From the NCBI RefSeq assembly GCF_029210465.1, contig NZ_JARGDL010000005.1, positions 53,366 through 85,365 of the forward strand: a stretch of 32,000 nt of DNA, in the 5' to 3' direction. Source of the stretch: Stygiobacter electus. GTDB taxonomy: Bacteria; Bacteroidota; Ignavibacteria; Ignavibacteriales; Melioribacteraceae. Shown piece after piece: positions 3,493 to 15,445 of this stretch; position 1 is the first letter of the stretch, and each line of letters starts with the position of its first letter. The position numbers were made by a program, and so were the translations under genes. Under the pieces are notes generated by a model. It saw nothing but the letters and a program-made list of their open reading frames with translations, had not been told where the DNA came from and made no database searches.

Positions 3493-3984
3493 ATAGATGT
3501 TCTTTATTTTAAACTTAACAAAAATGTATGCCTATTGTCAACCTTTCTTAAATTGGCTAACTATGCAATGCATCAACACTCTATCACTTACTATAAGCTA
3601 AAAGAACATATCGCTCAAACCAAACAACGTATTCGTTCGCAAATCGAACTCATTTTCCAAGAACTTTTGTGTATTGACGGAAGAAAGGAAAGGTTAAAGA
3701 GAACAAAATATACCGGGACTCTCAAACGGTTACTGATTGCAAAAAAAGCTGAGGGTGAAGTATGCCTATTAATACAAAATCCACTTTGCTTTTTTATGCT
3801 TTTTAATAACTATTTGAAAGAACATAATGTCAAAAATATTTTATAGTACTTTTTTTTCTTGCTTTGTTGCGAGTAGGCGTTGAAGACTTACTGAATTGTT
3901 TGAAATATTTTTCTGCCCTCTTTGCAAGAAGTATTTCCTTTTGTTTCTGTTTACAACTTAAATTTATTTTTCAATTTAATCAAG

Positions 3985-4023
3985 AAAATTTTCAGACACG
4001 AATTAACACTAATTTTCACTAAT
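3985..4023. repeat. Dispersed repeat R1, built of tandem 9-10 bp CACNAAT units (aaaattttcagacacgaattaacactaattttcactaat)
   Basis: It matches the reverse complement of 12061-12098 with two single-base indels. Internally it shows cacgaatta / acactaattt / tcactaat periodicity. Confidence 0.8.
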
Positions 4024-4082
4024 GGATAAAGATAAATTTCACGATTAATCTTAAGCTTACTTTATACTTGCTAAATTATATT

Positions 4083-4142
4083 TGTGTTAATCTGTGAAAT
4101 CTGTGGTAAAAAAACTAACCACAGATAACACAGATTTGCACA
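4083..4142. repeat. Imperfect 25-bp inverted repeat (tgtgttaatctgtgaaatctgtggt / accacagataacacagatttgcaca) with a 10-nt spacer
   Basis: The arms are complementary at 21 of 25 positions by manual alignment. Each arm is itself a tandem array of CACAGAT-type 9-10-mers. Confidence 0.8.
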
Positions 4143-4164
4143 GATCGATTTTATAATTTTTCGG

Positions 4165-9397: not shown

Positions 9398-9470
9398 AAT
9401 TTTTCATTTAAATTAACTAGTATTATTTATTATTTTTGAATTATCACAATAAATAAATTGAGGGGTGTTT

Positions 9471-10097
9471 ATGCCAAATCAAAAATATCTTTTCTTGTTT
9501 TTAATCATTTTTATTCCATCAATTTTCTTTTCACAAACAGATTCAACATTTAAAAAAAACCAATTAAAATTTTTACTTGTGAATAATCTTTCATTATCAT
9601 ATGTAAAATATACAAGTGAAAATAGCGGCTGGTTGTTTGGATTTGATGTTTCATTAAACGGTCAAAAAGAAAATTCAACCATTGAAACAACAAATATAAG
9701 TTCAAAAGAAAATGGAGATTTTGGAATCAACGATCAGTTTTTAACTTTAGACGTATTACATTTTGGTGAAAACGGTTTTACAAATAATACTAAATTTTAT
9801 TATGGTGCTGGTCCTTCATTAAAATTTAGTAGAAATAAAAACTCTCAAAAAAACACTTTTTATAATCACGAAATAACAAATATTCAATACGGGTTCGGTT
9901 TAAAATTAATAAGTGGTTTGCGAGTTAATATTTATAAATCGCTCTCTTTGGTTTCAGAATACTCGTTAGTAGGATATTTCCTTTGGGAAAAGCAAACAAA
10001 CGAGAATATTAATGGCAGCGACAAACAGACTATCACAAGCAATGGTTGGTATTACTCATTAAGTTCATTAAAGCTTGGTATCGTTTATAGTTTTTAA
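9471..10097 (+). CDS. Secreted beta-barrel outer-membrane protein candidate
   Basis: The tracked ORF starts at GTG 9465. The ATG at 9471 sits 5 nt after gagggg. The protein has a signal peptide (LFLFLIIFIPSIFFSQ), an alternating beta-strand pattern and a C-terminal GIVYSF. Confidence 0.55.
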   Translation: MPNQKYLFLFLIIFIPSIFFSQTDSTFKKNQLKFLLVNNLSLSYVKYTSENSGWLFGFDVSLNGQKENSTIETTNISSKENGDFGINDQFLTLDVLHFGENGFTNNTKFYYGAGPSLKFSRNKNSQKNTFYNHEITNIQYGFGLKLISGLRVNIYKSLSLVSEYSLVGYFLWEKQTNENINGSDKQTITSNGWYYSLSSLKLGIVYSF

Positions 10098-10129
10098 TTA
10101 TTAGAGTGTGATTTAATTTTTTTAATGTG

Positions 10130-10160
10130 GGGATGTTCAATTGAACATCCCTACTTTTTT
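10130..10160 (+). terminator. Intrinsic terminator downstream of the beta-barrel gene
   Basis: A perfect 22-bp palindrome gggatgttcaattgaacatccc is followed by tactttttt. Confidence 0.8.
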
Positions 10161-10162
10161 GT

Positions 10163-10223
10163 AAAATTTTTCTCAAATATCTTCACTAAAAAGATGTTAT
10201 ATTTAAACAGCATCAAAAAATAT
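10163..10223 (+). repeat. 61-bp direct repeat, copy A (upstream of umuD)
   Basis: aaaatttttctcaaatatcttcactaaaaagatgttatatttaaacagcatcaaaaaatat is identical at 61 of 61 positions to 12092-12152. Confidence 0.95.
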
Positions 10224-10265
10224 TTTTACTTCAACTGACAAAAAATTATTCAAAAGCTATTTTCT

Positions 10266-10712
10266 ATGGCTACTAAATTACATTCAAGTAAAATAATAGA
10301 TATTTATTCCGCACTAACAGATACAGAACTTGAATTACCAGTTGTTAATTCCGGCATTAGTGCTGGTTTTCCTTCACCGGCATTGGATTTTGTTGATATC
10401 AGTATTGATTTAAATAAACATTTAATTAAACATCCATCTGCTACTTTTTACGGACGTGTAAAAGGACACTCATTAAAAAATGCCGGTATTGATGATGGCG
10501 ATCTTTTAATTATTGACAGAAGTTTAGAACCGCAAAATGGAAAAATTGCTGTTTGTTATATTGATGGCGAATTCACAGCTAAAAGAATTAAAATAAAAAA
10601 AGATGAAATTTGGCTGATGCCGGAAAATGAAAATTACGCCCCAATTAAAGTCGGAAAGGATAACGACTTTTTAGTTTGGGGAATTGTAACTCATGTAATT
10701 AAATCTTTTTAA
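10266..10712 (+). CDS. umuD: S24-peptidase UmuD-like translesion polymerase accessory subunit
   Basis: 148 aa with the SAGFPSPA motif, a GHSL serine-nucleophile region and a downstream AKRI lysine. It lies 1 nt upstream of the umuC-like gene. Confidence 0.85.
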
Positions 10713-10713
10713 A

Positions 10714-11973
10714 ATGTTTTCATTAATTGATTGCAATAATTTTTATGCTTCGTGCGAAAGAGTTTTTCGCCCCGATTTAAATGGAAAGCCTGTTGTTGTT
10801 TTGTCCAACAACGATGGCTGTGTAATTGCAAGAAGTAACGAAGCAAAAGCTCTTGGCATTCCAATGGGTGCACCAGCTTTTCAATATGAAGATGTTTTTG
10901 TAAAACATAATGTTCATGTTTTTTCTGCAAACTTTGCTCTTTATGGTGATATGAGTCATCGCGTGATGACTATTTTATCCGAATATTCTCCTGATATCGA
11001 AATTTACAGCATTGACGAAGCCTTCTTAAATCTTGATGGATTAGAACATCTCAACTTACTTGATTATGGAAATAAAATCAGAAAACATGTTTTTAAATGG
11101 ACTGGAATTCCTATCAGTATTGGAATTGCACCAACAAAAGCTTTAGCCAAAGCTGCAAATAGAATTGCAAAAAAATTCTCCGATAAAACCAATGGCGTTT
11201 ATGTACTTGATAATCAAGAAAAAATTACTAAAACACTTAAATGGCTTTCTGTTGAAGATGTTTGGGGAATTGGAAGAAGACATAGCAAAAGATTAAAGGC
11301 AATTGGTGTAAAAACAGCTTACGATTTTATTCAACTTGATGATAATTATGTCAAAAGAAAAATGACAATTGTTGGTCTTCGCTTAAAAAGAGATTTGCAA
11401 GGAATTCCAACAATTCAAATGGAAGATGTTCAACCCAAAAAGAATATTGCAACGACAAGAACATTTGAAACTAATTATAGTGAGTTTGAACAGATTAATG
11501 AACGTGTAATCACTTTTGCAGTTTCGTGTGGTGAAAAGTTAAGAAAACAAAATTCAGCTTGTAATTCATTAATGGTTTTTATTCATACAAATCAACATCG
11601 GGAAGATTTACCGCAATACAGCAGAAACATTGTAGTTAAACTTCCATTTCCAACTAATTCCGGAATTGAACTTGCAAAATTTGCTTCGCAAGCATTAAAA
11701 CAAATTTTTAAGCCCGGTTACTTTTACAAAAAAGCCGGAGTTATAGTAATGGATTTTACACCGGCAGATATTCCTCAATATGATTTGTTTGAAAACAGCG
11801 ATGAACGTCATAAACCATTAATGCAAGCAGTTGATAAAATTAACTCGAGATATGGTCAGCATAAAATTCGTCTTGCGTCGCAAGATCAAAAACGTGTTTG
11901 GAAAATGAAACAGGAAAAACTATCACCACGCTACACAACAAAATTATCTGATATTATAACAATCAATTTATAA
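10714..11973 (+). CDS. umuC: Y-family DNA polymerase, UmuC-like
   Basis: 419 aa. The N-terminus [52 protein letters not shown] is the canonical UmuC block. Confidence 0.9.
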
Positions 11974-12060
11974 TTAATTTGCAATTCGCAACCTGCCTGC
12001 CGTGTAGACGGGTGTATAATATAAAATGTAAGAGTTGAGCTTACTCAACCCAATAAATCT

Positions 12061-12098
12061 ATTAGTGAAAATTAGTGTAATTCGTGTCTGAAAAATTT
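12061..12098. repeat. Dispersed repeat R1, second copy (inverted relative to 3985-4023)
   Basis: attagtgaaaattagtgtaattcgtgtctgaaaaattt is the reverse complement of the 3985-4023 sequence, apart from two indels. Confidence 0.8.
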
Positions 12099-13222
12099 TT
12101 CTCAAATATCTTCACTAAAAAGATGTTATATTTAAACAGCATCAAAAAATATGAGACTGTAAAAATATAATCTTCTTTTCCTTTCCACAGGTGCATTATT
12201 CTTCTGAGTAGTTTCTTTGCTATACGAATAATAGCTTCCTGCTTTTTCATTCTCTTTATTAATTGTCCATACTTCATCGTTAATGCAGGGTCTTTTCTCG
12301 ATGCTATCCAAGCTGATTCTATCAATATATTTCTTAAATATGTGTTCTGTCTTTGTGTTATTCCCAGAACAACTTCTTTCCCTCCTGTTGAATATGTCGA
12401 TGGAGCTAAACCTACATAACTGCTTAGGTGATCATATCCCAAAAATCTTCTTATATCCATTATTTCTGTATATAACGTTACTGCTGTTATAAATCCTATA
12501 CCAGGTACTGTCATTAGTCGTGTTATTATCTTTTGTTTGTCTTCATCCTGATTTATCATTTTTCTTAACATTCTAACAACTTCTGTCATCTGTTCCCTTA
12601 AGGTTTTAAGTTGTCTTAAGTGTTGTTGAAGTGTTTGTTTGACTTCTTCCTGCTGAAAGTTCAAGCTTTCTATGTATTTGATAAACTTTCCGCTCCAGTA
12701 TTTTACTTCTATGTTTTCCGGTAGTTGAACCCCTAAAAAATTCAATAATGATTTTATCCTGTTCTTTACTCTTGTCTGATCTTTTACCAGTTGTATCCTT
12801 AGTCTACTCAATGTCCTTGCTGCTTGCTGTTCCTCTGCTGGAATATATATTCCCTTGAGATTATTACTCGATAGCTCTCTGGCTAATTTTCTTGAGTCTA
12901 TTCTATCGGTTTTACTTGTCTTTTCCTTATTACTTGTTGGTACATCTGCAGGATTAACTACTATATTTTCTATTCCCATTGATTTCAATTGCCTGTCTAT
13001 CCAGTATCCACAATATCCAGCCTCATAGCAACTTTGATACTTCGCTTTCGGATAATTCTTCATTAAATATTTACTTAACTCCTTTGTACTTGGGTTCATA
13101 CTGAATGTTTTGATTTGTTGTCCTCCTGTATTTATTGTTACTGACCACTGCTTCTTATGTACGTCTATTCCAACAAATACTGTTTGGTTTGTAAAATCAA
13201 GTTTGTTATTTTCCTTCTGCAT
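12062..13222 (-). CDS. IS110-family transposase (DEDD N-terminal domain plus Transposase_20-type C-terminal domain)
   Basis: It carries VFVGIDVHKKQW, PGIGFITAVTLYTEIMDIRRF and SYVGLAPSTYSTGGK. Family-like sequence stops around ...LLRRIMHLWKGKEDY. The last ~30 codons read through the 61-bp repeat and repeat R1 before the stop. Confidence 0.88.
   Translation of the reverse strand: MQKENNKLDFTNQTVFVGIDVHKKQWSVTINTGGQQIKTFSMNPSTKELSKYLMKNYPKAKYQSCYEAGYCGYWIDRQLKSMGIENIVVNPADVPTSNKEKTSKTDRIDSRKLARELSSNNLKGIYIPAEEQQAARTLSRLRIQLVKDQTRVKNRIKSLLNFLGVQLPENIEVKYWSGKFIKYIESLNFQQEEVKQTLQQHLRQLKTLREQMTEVVRMLRKMINQDEDKQKIITRLMTVPGIGFITAVTLYTEIMDIRRFLGYDHLSSYVGLAPSTYSTGGKEVVLGITQRQNTYLRNILIESAWIASRKDPALTMKYGQLIKRMKKQEAIIRIAKKLLRRIMHLWKGKEDYIFTVSYFLMLFKYNIFLVKIFEKNFSDTNYTNFH
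12092..12152 (+). repeat. 61-bp direct repeat, copy B (abutting or inside the 3' end of the IS110 ORF)
   Basis: Identical to 10163-10223. On the minus strand it is translated as the tail ...YFLMLFKYNIFLVKIFEKNF of the transposase ORF. Confidence 0.95.
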
Positions 13223-13225
13223 AAT

Positions 13226-13300
13226 GGCATCCTTTACTGTTTTATTTTTTAATTAGATGATTTATTAAATTATTTTTATCTAATTTACAGAAAGGATGCC
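13226..13300 (-). promoter_or_regulatory. Extended hairpin that sequesters the transposase ribosome-binding site
   Basis: ggcatcctttactgt (13226-13240) pairs with acagaaaggatgcc (13287-13300). An inner stem pairs aattagat (13251-13258) with atctaatt (13278-13285). On the minus strand the 3' arm contains the aaagga Shine-Dalgarno just upstream of the ATG at 13222. On the plus strand the hairpin is followed by a T7 run. Confidence 0.55.
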
Positions 13301-13347
13301 TTTTTTTATTATTTAAACATATTATCTACATTGAATAAATTCCTAAA

Positions 13348-15420
13348 CTATTCTACCTTAAACAAATCATCAGAAACATTTTTATTTACTTCATAAGAAG
13401 ATAAAGTTAATTCAATTGAACCCATTGGTGTTCCTTGAATCATTTTATGTGCAACCATATAACCATTTAATTCTTTGTAATCATCGTAATCAATTGTTAT
13501 AGATAAACTACCTTGTGGAGAGTCAACGGTTGAGTTTGTTCTAATTAAAAATCCAGTAGCTGCATCATAATATTGTGAATTTTTCTTTCCAGATGGATAA
13601 ATTAAATTTATTTTGTAAGCATCTTTTTTATTAATGGGTTCCATACCGGCTAATTCTAATTTAATTCCTTGACTAGCATAATCTAAAAATGCATTCAAAG
13701 CAGCTTGAACTTTCATTTCTTCTAATTGAGAGCCGGATAATTCTTGTTCTTGTCCCATAGCAGAAACTTTTCCACGTGTTCCGTCAAAAACAGTTTTTTG
13801 TTGACCAACACCAAAATCAATTAATTGGAAAAGTTTATTTGGTGCTTTGCGTGTAATCGTAACAACTAAATTCATTCCTTGCATTGAACCGGTAAGTTTC
13901 ATCGTTTCATCTTTCATTTGAGAAAGTTTGTCTTTGCCACCCATTACCTGAATATATTTGTCAATTACTTGTTCAGCGGTTAAACCTTCTGGAGCTTTTT
14001 TAACATTTGGATCATACTTTTCACCATAAATATCATAGTAATCAATTTTACCATTCATAGAAAATTTTGTTAAATTTTTTGCAACTTCTTCTGCTTTACC
14101 AACTATCAAAACATTTGCATTGTTTGGTTTGATATATTTTTTTGCAACCGATAAAACATCATCAGCAGTTACATCATTTAAATTTTTCAAATAGTTTTTA
14201 TAAAAATCTTTTGGAAGTTTATATCGTTCGATGTTAATTGCAAAGTTTGCTATTGTTTGTGGATTTTCGAGAGAGCGAACAAAATTTCCAATCATGTAAT
14301 TTTTATTTATTTGTAATTCCTCGTCACTGACTTTTTCATTTCTTATTCTTTTCATTTCATTAAAAATTTCTGTTAATGCACTGTCGGTAACAATATTGCG
14401 AACGGGTGCACTTGCCATCCATACACCTATAAATTTATCGGCTCTCAAATTTGATCCAGCACCGTATGTAAATCCTTTTGTTTCTCTTAAGTTTTTATTT
14501 ATTCGCGAAGTGAATGAGCCACCAAGAATTGTATTCATTACAGAAGCTTTGATATAATCTTCGCTTGCTAAATTAAATTCAATTGGATAACTAACAGAAA
14601 TAACGGATTGAACAGCATTTGCTCTATCAACAAGTGCAACTTTATTTATTAGTGGTGCTTTTGGATTTTGAAATTCAGTTTTTGGAACATCGCCAGCTTT
14701 CCAATTACCAAAATATTTTTCTACAAGTTTTTGTGCTTCCTTTTTGTTTATATCACCAACAATTGATAGATATGCAATGTTTGGTTTTAAGTATGTTTTA
14801 TAATAGTTATTGCATAAATCTAAGTTAATAGATTTTACAGTTTCTTCTGTTGTGGGTTCACCATAAGGATGATCTTTTCCATAATTCAAAACATCACGTA
14901 CTCTTTGCGAAATTGCATTTGGTTCATCTTTTTGTGCCGCAAGGTTTGATAAAGTTTTCTTAATTATTTTATCAAGTTCTTCTTGTTTGAAATCAGAATT
15001 AAGAACAATATCACTCATAATTTCTAATAGTTTTGGTGCTTGTTTTTTTAGTGCTGATGCAAAAATATTATTTGAAGATGTATTTAATGTTGCACCAAGA
15101 AAATCAATTTCTTCATCAAGTTTATCTTTGCTTCTTGTTTTGGTTCCGGTTCTTAAAAGTTCGCCGGTTGCTTCAACATAACCAGCATGTTTTCCTTCAA
15201 CAATTGGATCTATATCAAAAAATAAATTGAATGAAACACGAGGCACTTTTTTATTTTCAACTACAAATACTTTCAAACCATTTTTTAGGGTAAATGATTC
15301 GTAATTACCAAGTTTAATTTCTGGTGCTGGTCCAGCTGCAGGTTTTTTGCTTCTATCTATTTGTGCAAAAGATGCTATCGTTATAAATAGAATTAAAACT
15401 AATGACAAAAATTTTTTCAT
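13348..15420 (-). CDS. M16-family (pitrilysin-like) peptidase, non-catalytic-type subunit with a C-terminal extension
   Basis: The tracked ORF starts at GTG 15432. The ATG at 15420 is preceded by ggagaataaa. It has a signal peptide and M16 fold blocks but no HxxEH motif. It lies directly downstream of the HxxEH-bearing partner. Confidence 0.75.
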   Translation of the reverse strand: MKKFLSLVLILFITIASFAQIDRSKKPAAGPAPEIKLGNYESFTLKNGLKVFVVENKKVPRVSFNLFFDIDPIVEGKHAGYVEATGELLRTGTKTRSKDKLDEEIDFLGATLNTSSNNIFASALKKQAPKLLEIMSDIVLNSDFKQEELDKIIKKTLSNLAAQKDEPNAISQRVRDVLNYGKDHPYGEPTTEETVKSINLDLCNNYYKTYLKPNIAYLSIVGDINKKEAQKLVEKYFGNWKAGDVPKTEFQNPKAPLINKVALVDRANAVQSVISVSYPIEFNLASEDYIKASVMNTILGGSFTSRINKNLRETKGFTYGAGSNLRADKFIGVWMASAPVRNIVTDSALTEIFNEMKRIRNEKVSDEELQINKNYMIGNFVRSLENPQTIANFAINIERYKLPKDFYKNYLKNLNDVTADDVLSVAKKYIKPNNANVLIVGKAEEVAKNLTKFSMNGKIDYYDIYGEKYDPNVKKAPEGLTAEQVIDKYIQVMGGKDKLSQMKDETMKLTGSMQGMNLVVTITRKAPNKLFQLIDFGVGQQKTVFDGTRGKVSAMGQEQELSGSQLEEMKVQAALNAFLDYASQGIKLELAGMEPINKKDAYKINLIYPSGKKNSQYYDAATGFLIRTNSTVDSPQGSLSITIDYDDYKELNGYMVAHKMIQGTPMGSIELTLSSYEVNKNVSDDLFKVE

Positions 15421-15445
15421 TTTATTCTCCACTTATTTTCAAAAC

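What the first reader, a model, noticed from the sequence alone, without database searches (positions are those of the whole stretch)
10163..12152. Perfect 61-bp direct repeat brackets the umuD-umuC operon, with the second copy abutting an IS110
10163-10223 and 12092-12152 are identical at 61 of 61 positions and 1929 bp apart, in the same orientation. Copy A sits exactly between the upstream terminator and umuD, so it is positioned as the operon promoter/operator region. It contains an AT-centred palindrome, TGTT-atattta-AACA, within gatgttatatttaaacagcatc, which is a candidate SOS-type operator. Copy B lies after umuC and is read through by the IS110 transposase ORF. There are three possibilities:
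- the 61-mer is the IS right end and copy A is a solo end that now drives umuDC
- the 61-mer is the IS110 target and the element inserted at ...aaaaaatat|
- the repeats mark umuDC as a recombination-delimited module

Perfect identity implies a recent event.
Basis: partly seen in the sequence, partly recalled or inferred. Interest (0 to 1): 0.6.

Follow-up and report, generated by a model that had tools for sequence, protein, structure and literature searches.

The report
Rearrangement scar beside a truncated IS
The perfect 61-bp repeat is real, but the second copy is a stray piece of the umuDC upstream region left at a rearrangement joint next to a broken insertion sequence, so it is ordinary genome scarring and not a mobile-element end, target or operator.

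Summary
Bases 10163-10223 and 12092-12152 are identical at 61/61 (63/64 from 10160/12089), lie 1929 bp apart in direct orientation, and occur nowhere else in the genome.

- **Copy A** is the native umuD upstream region. In sister species G002, its right 43 bp run without a break into the umuD 5' region.
- **Copy B** is a recent ectopic duplicate inside a composite junction.
  - On its left it is fused, within an 11-nt shared stretch (AAAATTTTTCT), to a fragment of the upstream leader of an integron integrase gene. That leader is dispersed in about 13 copies in this genome.
  - On its right, after 3 orphan bases (GAG), it abuts an IS1111-group (IS110-family) element that is broken internally.
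- **The IS is truncated.** A 99%-identical full copy (L020), its empty site (contig C43) and a 56% relative (L021) show that the complete IS is about 1.48 kb, with a ~305-nt right end and subterminal inverted repeats. The window copy stops at transposase codon 356.
- **The IS originally sat elsewhere in context.** The last 96 nt of its right end lie on contig C60, beside the gene that neighbours M16 in G013. Its target is ...GT AGA GAYG....

So the 61-mer is neither the IS end nor the IS target. No attC/att features mark umuDC as a module. The genome has no LexA.

The parts
10127..10154 (+). Intrinsic-terminator hairpin of the upstream ORF (9465-10097), immediately left of copy A
   Evidence: 12-pair stem followed by a T run; fold z = -4.5.
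10163..10223 (+). Copy A of the 61-mer: the native umuD upstream region (identity extends to 10160 with one mismatch)
   Evidence: The G002 homolog of 10181-10223 runs contiguously into the umuD 5' region at 93% identity.
10266..10712 (+). umuD (148 aa, S24 peptidase, no DNA-binding domain)
   Evidence: PF00717; NF007621, 161.5 bits against a cut-off of 110.
10714..11973 (+). umuC (419 aa, Y-family polymerase)
   Evidence: PF00817, PF11799, PF13438.
11974..12038 (+). REP-like hairpin-bearing spacer. It replaces the SRAP gene that follows umuC in G002 and G013.
   Evidence: synteny break right after the umuC stop; small hairpins; similar to dispersed REP-like sequences.
12039..12102 (+). Fragment of the integron-integrase (intI) upstream leader family: CTCAAC box and three 10-bp-spaced repeats ATTAGTG/ATTAGTG/ATTCGTG. 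About 90% identical to the family, up to AAAATTTTTCT.
   Evidence: alignment with 11-13 family copies; the full copy precedes an intI gene, TIGR02249 at 434.6 bits.
12092..12102 (+). 11-nt stretch AAAATTTTTCT shared by the intI leader family and the umuD upstream region; this is the left crossover point of copy B
   Evidence: family identity is high up to this point and near background after it (z = -0.9 to 3.1 once the first 14 nt are removed).
12092..12152 (+). Copy B of the 61-mer: an ectopic duplicate, of which only 12103-12152 (50 nt) is unambiguously derived from the umuD upstream region
12153..12155 (.). Three orphan bases (GAG) between copy B and the IS body. The breakpoint is known only to about +-10 nt.
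   Evidence: homology with L020 ends at 12156; two mismatches in the last 8 IS bases.
12156..13324 (-). 3'-truncated IS1111-group (IS110-family) element: a 105-nt left end plus transposase codons 1-356. The last codons, the stop and the ~305-nt right end are missing.
   Evidence: PF01548 and PF02371; 99% identity over 1174 bp with L020:204-1376; full element defined by the empty site C43, by L021 and by the subterminal inverted repeats.
12062..12155 (-). Read-through tail (about 30 codons plus the stop) of the truncated transposase ORF, encoded by GAG, copy B and the intI-leader fragment
   Evidence: All relatives end at query residue 352-373, mostly 352-357. L020 ends ...KEDYILAVVE*.
13325..13347 (-). 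Left target half-site of the IS (core AGA at 13325-13327, GT at 13328-13329) within the native 3' flank of the M16 peptidase gene
   Evidence: homologous to the G013 M16 flank; matches the C43 and L021 target half-sites.
13348..15432 (-). M16-family peptidase gene, the original neighbour on the left-end side of the IS

Best explanation
Copy A is simply the native upstream (promoter-bearing) region of the umuDC operon. Copy B is a recent 50-61-bp ectopic copy of that region, and it forms the middle of a composite rearrangement junction. On the left, copy B is joined to a fragment of the integron-integrase upstream leader, which sits behind umuC, by an exchange within an 11-nt identical stretch (AAAATTTTTCT). 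On the right, after three filler bases, it is joined to the interior of an IS1111-group element at about transposase codon 356.

That IS had originally inserted between the M16 peptidase gene and gene V, at a site reading ...GT AGA GACG.... The rearrangement cut off its last ~300 nt. This removed the transposase stop, the right end and the region where this IS group encodes its bridge RNA. The event coincided with relocation of the DNA that follows umuC in related species (SRAP ... V, about 43.5 kb, now on contig C60).

Two routes fit equally well.
(a) Unequal exchange at AAAATTTTTCT made a tandem duplication of the 1929-bp unit, and a later deletion or translocation removed everything from 50 nt into the second unit up to the inside of the IS.
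(b) One complex break-repair event copied a 50-nt patch from 1.9 kb upstream, primed by the 11-nt match.

Shown: the identities, boundaries, IS truncation, IS target and synteny breaks. Inferred: the order and mechanism of events.

Consequences:
- The IS copy is almost certainly immobile, and its ORF acquires a 30-codon junk tail.
- The two 61-mers are a substrate for RecA-dependent loss of umuDC.
- The repeat has no designed function.
For: - Repeat exact and unique in the genome.
- G002 carries the right 43 bp of the 61-mer contiguous with the umuD 5' region, with no second copy after umuC. In G002 and G013 umuC is followed within 14-31 bp by an SRAP gene.
- Copy B's left context is collinear with, and about 90% identical to, the intI leader family up to AAAATTTTTCT, then drops to background.
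- L020 (99% identity over 1174 bp) matches window 13329..12156 only.
- Contig C43 is the empty site of L020's 1.48-kb insertion, flanked by AGA.
- L021 shares the left-end start, the internal CGTAGATT motif and the ...TTAACATAAC terminus.
- The subterminal inverted repeats co-vary between L020 and L021.
- All 20 relatives of the transposase end at query residue 352-373, mostly 352-357.
- The last 96 nt of the IS right end, followed by AGA GACG and gene V, sit at C60:72-172, and V neighbours M16 in G013.
- SRAP and V are collinear on C60 in the orientation expected if that block once lay between umuC and the IS.
Against: - The order of events is not observed.
- The intI-leader fragment has no identical donor elsewhere in the genome, so whether it was behind umuC before the event is unknown.
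- V-M16 adjacency is seen only in G013. More distant genus members differ, and G002 has yet another M16 flank.
- The synteny of the three genomes is scrambled at more than two points, so the history involved several events.
- The left 18 nt of the 61-mer are not demonstrably conserved in G002 (z = 1.2). The shared 11-mer could therefore be old homology and not chance microhomology.
- The assembly could not be checked against reads.
Confidence: 0.7

Rival explanations
1. The 61-mer is the right end of the IS, and copy A is a solo IS end that now drives umuDC.
For: The transposase ORF reads through copy B, and copy B directly abuts IS-derived sequence.
Against: The 99%-identical copy L020 has no 61-mer. 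Its right end is about 305 nt of unrelated sequence ending ...TTAACATAAC. That end is bounded by an empty site (C43), shared with L021, and paired with the left end by co-varying subterminal inverted repeats. All transposase relatives stop at about residue 356. G002 has the 61-mer homolog upstream of umuD and no IS there.
Confidence: 0.01
2. The 61-mer is the sequence-specific target of the IS, which inserted after ...AAAAAATAT.
For: IS110-family elements are site-specific (PMC11208160). The repeat boundary coincides, to within 3 nt, with the start of IS sequence.
Against: The junction is not at an IS terminus: it lies at about codon 356, roughly 300 nt short of the true right end. The three known sites of this IS clade read CGT/TGT AGA GATG/GACG/GGAC, which is unlike the 61-mer end. 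The other flank of the IS is native M16 3' sequence, not the continuation TTTTTACTTC. Copy A carries the same supposed target and is unoccupied.
Confidence: 0.03
3. The repeats are att-like or cassette-like sites that delimit umuDC as a mobile module able to form a 1929-bp circle, moved by the integron integrase or another recombinase.
For: - The structure is a circular permutation of [intI leader - 61-mer - umuDC].
- An intI-leader fragment with a CTCAAC/GTTGAG box lies next to copy B.
- The genome has an intact integron integrase.
- umuDC has a different chromosomal context in G000, G002 and G013.
- Integrative elements are typically flanked by direct repeats of this size.
Against: - The DNA behind umuC and left of copy A does not fold as an attC: it gives three small hairpins, and the R''/R' and L''/L' pairing fails.
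- IntI recombination duplicates only a few bases, not 61.
- umuDC points toward the leader, opposite to the usual cassette orientation.
- In G002 and G013 umuDC has no flanking repeat and travels with SRAP.
- The right edge of copy B is an illegitimate joint inside an IS.
- The 61-mer occurs nowhere else.
Confidence: 0.07
4. The 61-mer is a regulatory unit (a promoter plus an SOS-type operator at TGTT-N7-AACA), and its duplication reflects selection for a second regulated site.
For: Copy A lies within 100 bp upstream of umuD and is conserved in G002. It has weak, collinear similarity to the intI promoter leader (z about 5, mostly from the first 14 nt). intI and umuDC are SOS-regulated in many bacteria (PMC8565304, and Guerin 2009 from my own knowledge).
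Against: - There is no LexA, no COG2932-type regulator and no other S24 protein in a 99.97%-complete genome.
- The dyad is not enriched genome-wide.
- The known Bacteroidetes motifs CTAA-N5-TTAG and GGA-N5-TCC are absent from the 61-mer (direct reading; PMC8565304).
- Conservation in G002 (93%) equals that of the coding sequence, so there is no extra constraint.
- No sigma-70-like promoter is predicted inside the 61-mer. The nearest is at 10235-10263.
- Copy B faces the antisense strand of a dead IS.
Confidence: 0.1
5. The arrangement is an assembly artefact: a loop in the assembly graph at the 61-mer, with the real structure being terminator - 61-mer - IS plus a separate molecule or allele.
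For: The genome is a 60-contig draft with strain heterogeneity: C43 is an empty site while L020 is the filled site. A 61-bp repeat shorter than the k-mer or read length can be mis-threaded. Reads could not be examined.
Against: Either threading still requires two real copies of the 61-mer with the observed flanks. The leader/61-mer joint shares only 11-14 nt, too short to cause a k-mer mis-join. Contig C45 (147 kb) passes through both copies with unique flanks.
Confidence: 0.05

Closest known systems
IS1111 group of the IS110 family (e.g. IS1111, IS4321/IS5075, ISPpu9; bridge-RNA recombinases, PMC11208160)
   Same: - DEDD plus Transposase_20 domains.
- Short left end (105 nt) and long right end (about 305 nt) in the full copy.
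- Subterminal inverted repeats of 10-14 bp.
- Site-specific target with a 3-nt core.
- An internal right-end motif that repeats the element's own left junction, as expected of a bridge-RNA guide.
   Different: The window copy is a dead fragment: it lacks the last codons, the stop and the whole right end. The element is unnamed and only 44-61% identical to other relatives found. Bridge RNA was not demonstrated.
Rearrangement junctions formed at short homologies next to IS elements (tandem duplication by unequal exchange; microhomology-primed templated insertions, MMBIR/FoSTeS type; my own knowledge)
   Same: A short (50-61 bp) perfect copy of nearby sequence (1.9 kb away, same orientation) sits at a novel joint. 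One edge has 11 nt of shared sequence and the other has 3 filler bases. The joint is associated with loss or relocation of a large block.
   Different: The event itself was not observed, and such complex junctions are documented mainly in eukaryotes and in laboratory bacteria. Here one partner is the interior of an IS rather than its terminus, so it is not a classical IS-mediated adjacent deletion.
Integron platform (intI, P_int, attI) and the IS1111-attC elements that target integron sites (Post & Hall 2009, cited in PMC11208160)
   Same: The sequence fused to copy B is a fragment of the leader of a genuine integron integrase gene (TIGR02249). It has direct repeats reminiscent of IntI-binding repeats and a GTTRRRY-type box, and an IS1111-group element lies next to it.
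   Different: No intI gene is present at this locus. No attC fold was found. The IS did not insert into the integron-type sequence: it was joined to it by an internal break. The attI function of the leader is conjecture.
LexA-controlled umuDC operon of E. coli and the non-canonical SOS regulons of Bacteroidetes (PMC8565304)
   Same: Gene pair umuD (S24, cleavable type) and umuC with overlapping stop and start. A dyad lies in the upstream region.
   Different: No LexA or LexA-like repressor is encoded. The dyad matches no described motif and is not enriched.

Membership tests
IS110 family, IS1111 group | DEDD (RuvC-like) N-terminal domain plus C-terminal Transposase_20 domain | tested here: met
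   PF01548 (68 bits) and PF02371 (74.9 bits).
IS110 family, IS1111 group | Short left end, long right end, subterminal inverted repeats of 7-17 bp (PMC11208160) | tested here: met
   In the full copy L020, the left end is 105 nt and the right end about 305 nt. The inverted repeats are TATGTT(T)AAAT in L020 and TTATGTT(T)AATAGT in L021, and they co-vary.
IS110 family, IS1111 group | Both ends present in the copy in this window (a complete, potentially mobile element) | tested here: not met
   The window matches L020:204-1376 only. The right end, L020:1377-1686, is absent. A 96-nt remnant sits at C60:72-167.
IS110 family, IS1111 group | Encoded bridge RNA with target and donor guides | tested here: inconclusive
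   Rfam gave no hit on the window, but the window lacks the right end. The right ends of L020 and L021 contain an 8-9-mer identical to their own left junctions. No covariance model was run.
61-mer as IS terminus | The sequence is present at the end of other copies of the same IS | tested here: not met
   L020 (99% identical) lacks it, and the 61-mer occurs only twice in the genome.
61-mer as IS110-type target site | The flank resembles the flanks of other insertions, and the junction lies at an IS terminus | tested here: not met
   The targets are CGT/TGT-AGA-GAYG/GGAC. The junction lies about 300 nt inside the element.
Integron gene cassette / attC-bounded module | attC: a 57-141-nt imperfect hairpin with R'' (RYYYAAC) and R' (GTTRRRY) paired, next to the cassette ORF | tested here: not met
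   11974-12060 folds into three separate small hairpins on either strand, and the candidate R''/R' and L''/L' do not pair. The region left of copy A is a plain terminator.
Integron integrase upstream leader family (this genome) | Collinear similarity to the ~100 nt upstream of the intact intI gene and its truncated copies | tested here: met
   Window 12039-12147 matches 11-13 copies at 77-89%, and about 90% up to 12102. intI is identified by TIGR02249 at 434.6 bits against a cut-off of 265.
LexA / SOS operator | A LexA or LexA-like S24 repressor encoded in the genome | tested here: not met
   TIGR00498 and PF00717 each hit only this umuD gene; genome completeness is 99.97%.
LexA / SOS operator | The motif recurs upstream of other damage-response genes or is enriched in the genome | tested here: not met
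   TGTT-N7-AACA occurs 123 times against about 132 expected. The exact 15-mer occurs only in the two copies.
LexA / SOS operator | Protein binding and DNA-damage induction | not testable with these tools
   Needs EMSA or pull-down, and RT-qPCR after mitomycin C or UV.
umuDC (Pol V) operon | An S24 UmuD-type protein followed by a Y-family polymerase with the UmuC C-terminal domain | tested here: met
   NF007621, 161.5 bits against a cut-off of 110; PF00817, PF11799, PF13438.

The most novel reading that the evidence does not exclude
The integron-integrase leader (three ATT(A/C)GTG repeats plus a promoter), dispersed in about 13 copies with one fixed edge and variable gene content behind it, may be a mobile regulatory or recombination module that captures genes by exchange at its AAAATTTTTCT box. 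On that reading, the leader/61-mer fusion at copy B is a frozen intermediate in which this module was being placed in front of a second umuDC copy. It would give a LexA-less bacterium a common control region for intI and error-prone polymerase genes.
Probability: 0.08. Interest if true: 0.6.

Novelty: new member of a known kind. Interest (0 to 1): 0.27.

Why it matters
The finding itself matters little. It is a clean worked example of how a perfect short direct repeat next to an IS can look like an IS end, a target site or an att site when it is only a rearrangement scar. It also shows that the true ends of an IS1111-group element can be missed when the only local copy is truncated.

Practical points:
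- The transposase ORF annotated here (386 aa) is a chimera and should be flagged as a pseudogene.
- The IS is dead in this genome.
- umuDC sits between 61-bp direct repeats and could be lost by homologous recombination.

The side observations may deserve a look of their own: many truncated intI-leader copies, no LexA despite umuDC and intI, and a candidate bridge-RNA guide in the IS right end.

Tried and rejected
- **Rfam scan of 9400-13500:** only a chance PinT hit at E = 0.94.
- **One wasted Pfam call** on a 20-aa fragment.
- **Exact-protein look-up of UmuC in public assemblies:** nothing on record.
- **L020's source assembly:** it holds only the IS contig, with no umuDC locus.
- **Homology of the whole 61-mer with the intI leader:** z is about 5 for the full 61-mer but -0.9 to 3.1 (0.4-3.1 in ten of eleven members) after removing the first 14 nt. 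So I treat only the 11-14-nt stretch as shared.
- **Homology of the 42 bp between copy A and umuD with the leader:** not significant.
- **G002 homology left of 10181:** not significant with the context of either copy.
- **C60:1-71 as the reciprocal leader fragment:** rejected (z at most 2.3). It resembles the end of contig C5 instead.
- **umuC|X and S9-peptidase|SRAP as reciprocal products of one exchange:** X's best match is G002's S9-downstream region (78%, z = 8.6). But X is a dispersed REP-like sequence with an 85% match in C56, so this is inconclusive.
- **Full reconstruction of the rearrangement path from G002 and G013 synteny:** abandoned, because at least four breakpoints differ among the three genomes.
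- **Bridge-RNA guide matching in the 105-nt left end:** only AT-rich matches of no weight (fold; by eye).
Full report
**1. Observation**

The repeat is real. The repeat finder reports 10160-10223 and 12089-12152 as 63/64 identical, with the single mismatch at the third base. So 10163-10223 and 12092-12152 are 61/61 identical, 1929 bp apart and in direct orientation. The genome that contains the window (G000: 60 contigs, 3.18 Mb, 99.97% complete; the window is C45:53366-85365) holds exactly these two copies.

- An ORF with no known family (9465-10097), followed by a strong terminator hairpin at 10127-10154.
- umuD (10266-10712; S24 peptidase, NF007621).
- umuC (10714-11973; IMS, IMS_C and DUF4113 domains).
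- A minus-strand ORF of 386 aa (13222 to 12062) with the two IS110-family transposase domains.
- A convergent M16 peptidase gene.

**2. Copy A is the native umuD upstream region**

In the closest relative in the genome set (G002, same genus, about 92% DNA identity), ruvC is followed after 38 bp by ...CTTCATAAAAAAGATGTTATATTTAAACAGCGTCAAAAAATATTTTGCTTCAACTGA...ATG(umuD). This is a contiguous homolog of window 10181 onward at 93% identity. So the right 43 bp of the 61-mer, joined to the 42 bp that follow copy A, predate the split of the two species.

The left 18 nt of the 61-mer look similar in G002 (AAAATTT..C.CAAA), but that similarity is not statistically demonstrable. In G002 and in G013, umuC is followed within 31 and 14 bp by a 200-aa SRAP/YedK-like gene. 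Neither genome has a second copy of the upstream sequence. The two copies here are identical while the species differ by 7%, so the duplication is recent and specific to this lineage.

**3. What lies to the left of copy B**

Window 12039-12147 matches at least 11 other places in G000 at 77-89% identity. Aligning them and following one copy downstream showed that this family is the upstream leader of an integron integrase gene. The gene is C60:112637-113653, which scores 434.6 bits on TIGR02249 against a cut-off of 265.

There is one intact intI and about 12 partial copies. These consist of the ~100-nt leader plus 50-370 nt of the 5' end of intI. All share the same left boundary and have different right ends. 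The leader carries three 10-bp-spaced repeats (ATTAGTG, ATTAGTG, ATTCGTG) and a TTGACT...TAAGTT promoter-like pair. In one subfamily a GCTCAAC box precedes it.

The context of copy B is collinear with this leader and about 90% identical to it from the CTCAAC box (12044-12049) up to ...TGAAAAATTTTTCT (12102). Beyond that point it is identical to copy A and close to background against the family. The shuffle z-score is about 5 for the whole 61-mer but only -0.9 to 3.1 (0.4-3.1 in ten of the eleven members) once its first 14 nt are removed.

So the left edge of copy B is a crossover within an 11-nt stretch (AAAATTTTTCT; 10163-10173 and 12092-12102) that the leader family and the umuD upstream region share.

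**4. What lies to the right of copy B**

A search of species-representative genomes found a copy of the transposase gene that is 98% identical at the protein level (L020). At the DNA level, L020:204-1376 matches window 13329 down to 12156 at 99% identity, and nothing beyond. That alone removes the 61-mer from the IS. Every one of the 20 relatives recovered matches the query only up to residue 352-373, mostly 352-357. L020's protein ends ...KEDYILAVVE*, whereas the window ORF continues ...KEDYIFTVSYFLMLF... for 30 more codons through GAG, copy B and the leader fragment.

The relatives also carry a conserved, structured region after the stop codon. That led to the decisive result: L020's flanks exist in G000 itself.
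- Contig C43 is 99% identical to both L020 flanks and reads ...TTTCGTAGAGATGGC....
- L020 reads ...TTTCGTAGA|TAATATG...(1.48 kb)...CATAAC AGA|GATGGC....

So C43 is the empty site, and the complete element is about 1.48 kb. It has a 105-nt left end, the transposase gene, and a right end of about 305 nt ending ...TTAACATAAC, with the 3-nt core AGA on both sides.

A 56%-identical relative from another genome (L021) has the same left-end start (CCCCGTAGA|TATTATG), the same internal CCGTAGATTACGGC motif and the same terminus TTAACATAACAG|GGAC. The subterminal inverted repeats co-vary between the two elements: TATGTT(T)AAAT in L020 and TTATGTT(T)AATAGT in L021.

A short left end, a long right end and subterminal inverted repeats are the hallmarks of the IS1111 group, whose bridge RNA is encoded in the right end (PMC11208160). 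The window copy therefore lacks its last codons, its stop, its right end and, by inference, its guide RNA. The joint with copy B lies inside the IS, about 300 nt short of the real terminus. It is known only to about +-10 nt, because two of the last eight matching bases differ.

**5. Where the IS originally sat**

The left-end flank in the window (13330-13347) is the native 3' flank of the M16 gene, since it is homologous to the G013 locus.

The last 96 nt of the IS right end are found at C60:72-167. They are followed by AGA GACGCAG..., a terminator and gene V. In G013, V is the gene next to M16, 63 bp away. Joining the two half-sites gives ...CAATGT AGA GACGCAG.... This resembles the C43 site ...TTTCGT AGA GATGGC... 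and the L021 site ...CCCCGT AG(A/G) GGAC....

So the IS inserted between M16 and V at its normal target and was later broken. The 61-mer, which ends ...AAAAATAT, is not that target.

G000 holds no intact copy of the IS: L020:1377-1543 has no match in it. Another right-end remnant lies at the end of contig C42.

**6. The rearrangement**

The SRAP gene and its neighbour, which follow umuC in G002 and G013, lie in G000 at C60:43671-41602. This is the same contig, and the orientation expected, as V at C60:238-2201. The simplest reading is that a block of about 43.5 kb (SRAP ... V plus the right part of the IS) once lay between umuC and the IS body and was moved. It now follows an S9 peptidase gene, whose ancestral neighbour in both G002 and G013 is a gene at C45:84415.

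More than two breakpoints distinguish the three genomes, and I could not reconstruct the full path. What remains between umuC and the IS body is, in order:
- a REP-like spacer (11974-12038);
- the intI-leader fragment (12039-12102);
- 50 nt that can only have come from the umuD upstream region (12103-12152);
- GAG.

Two routes explain copy B equally well: a tandem duplication of the 1929-bp unit by unequal exchange at the 11-mer followed by truncation, or a single complex repair event with a templated 50-nt patch.

**7. The other readings**

- **Operator.** The genome encodes no LexA and no S24 protein other than this UmuD, which has no DNA-binding domain. The dyad TGTT-N7-AACA is not enriched (123 observed, about 132 expected), and the longer palindrome occurs only in the two copies. 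The motifs described for the non-canonical Bacteroidetes SOS repressors (CTAA-N5-TTAG, GGA-N5-TCC; PMC8565304) are absent from the 61-mer. The consensus scan places no sigma-70-type promoter inside the 61-mer; the nearest is at 10235-10263. The 61-mer has no significant fold. It may still carry promoter elements, since it lies within 100 bp of the start codon, but nothing singles it out.
- **Cassette or module.** Neither flank folds like an attC. IntI recombination does not duplicate 61 bp. umuDC in the relatives has no such repeats.
- **Assembly artefact.** This cannot be excluded without reads. But any threading of the assembly graph needs two real copies with these flanks.

**8. Verdict**

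The feature is a rearrangement scar next to a dead IS1111-group element, an ordinary kind of thing. The earlier notes of this scan on the same window (the transposase ORF running out into flanking repeats, and the R1 repeat recurring at 3985-4023) agree with what I found. The present analysis explains them as IS truncation and as copies of the intI leader.

Noticed in passing
window ~3902-4159 (minus strand); G000 C60:112300-113653 and about 11 other places (C2, C3, C5, C6, C8, C9 x2, C36, C37, C45:10365-10762, C58): There is one intact integron integrase gene, plus at least 12 partial copies of its ~100-nt upstream leader with 50-370 nt of the 5' end of intI. All share the same left boundary and have different right ends, and each is followed by unrelated genes. 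So many truncated intI-leader modules in one 3.2-Mb genome is unusual. The leader could be an attI/P_int unit or a mobile promoter.
   Followed up: partly
L020 (JBMOLG010000019.1) versus G000 contigs C43, C42 and C60:72-172: A contig filed under a Nanoarchaeota MAG is 99-100% identical to this bacterium's contigs, so it is probably mis-binned. It carries the full-length IS in a site that is empty in G000 (C43), which is an insertion polymorphism between near-identical strains. Its transposase has an in-frame stop at codon 158.
   Followed up: yes
L020:1455-1475 and L021 (about 100 nt before its right terminus): The IS right end contains TTCGTAGAT (L020) or CCGTAGAT (L021). Each is identical to that element's own left junction (target-left plus AGA plus the first left-end base), and the two differ at one co-varying position. 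This is a candidate bridge-RNA guide segment.
   Followed up: partly
window 9398-10160: The 210-aa ORF 9465-10097 (no Pfam or NCBIfam hit) and its terminator are absent in G002, where ruvC is 38 bp from the umuD upstream region. This is a lineage-specific insertion of about 760 bp immediately left of copy A.
   Followed up: partly
whole genome G000: There is no LexA and no other S24-family protein, although umuDC and an integron integrase are present. Both are classically LexA-controlled, so how they are regulated here is open.
   Followed up: partly
G000 C60:41602-43800: The SRAP/YedK-like gene and the 428-aa gene that follow umuC in G002 and G013 sit behind an S9 peptidase gene in G000. That peptidase's neighbour in G002 and G013 is the gene at C45:84415 (window ~31050). 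So several breakpoints separate these genomes around this locus.
   Followed up: partly
window 13226-13300 (minus strand): A long two-tier hairpin in the IS left end ends 3 nt before the transposase ATG (fold z = -4.8). It is conserved in L020 and L021 and, with a different sequence (CTCCTCCG...CGGAGGAG), in the more distant relatives.
   Followed up: partly
G000 C42:1282-1427 and C60:1-71 / C5:97651-97720: A second orphan remnant of the IS right end (146 nt, 99% identical to L020) lies at a contig end. Separately, a ~70-nt repeat is shared by the start of C60 and the end of C5 (93%). Both mark unresolved repeats at contig breaks.
   Followed up: no
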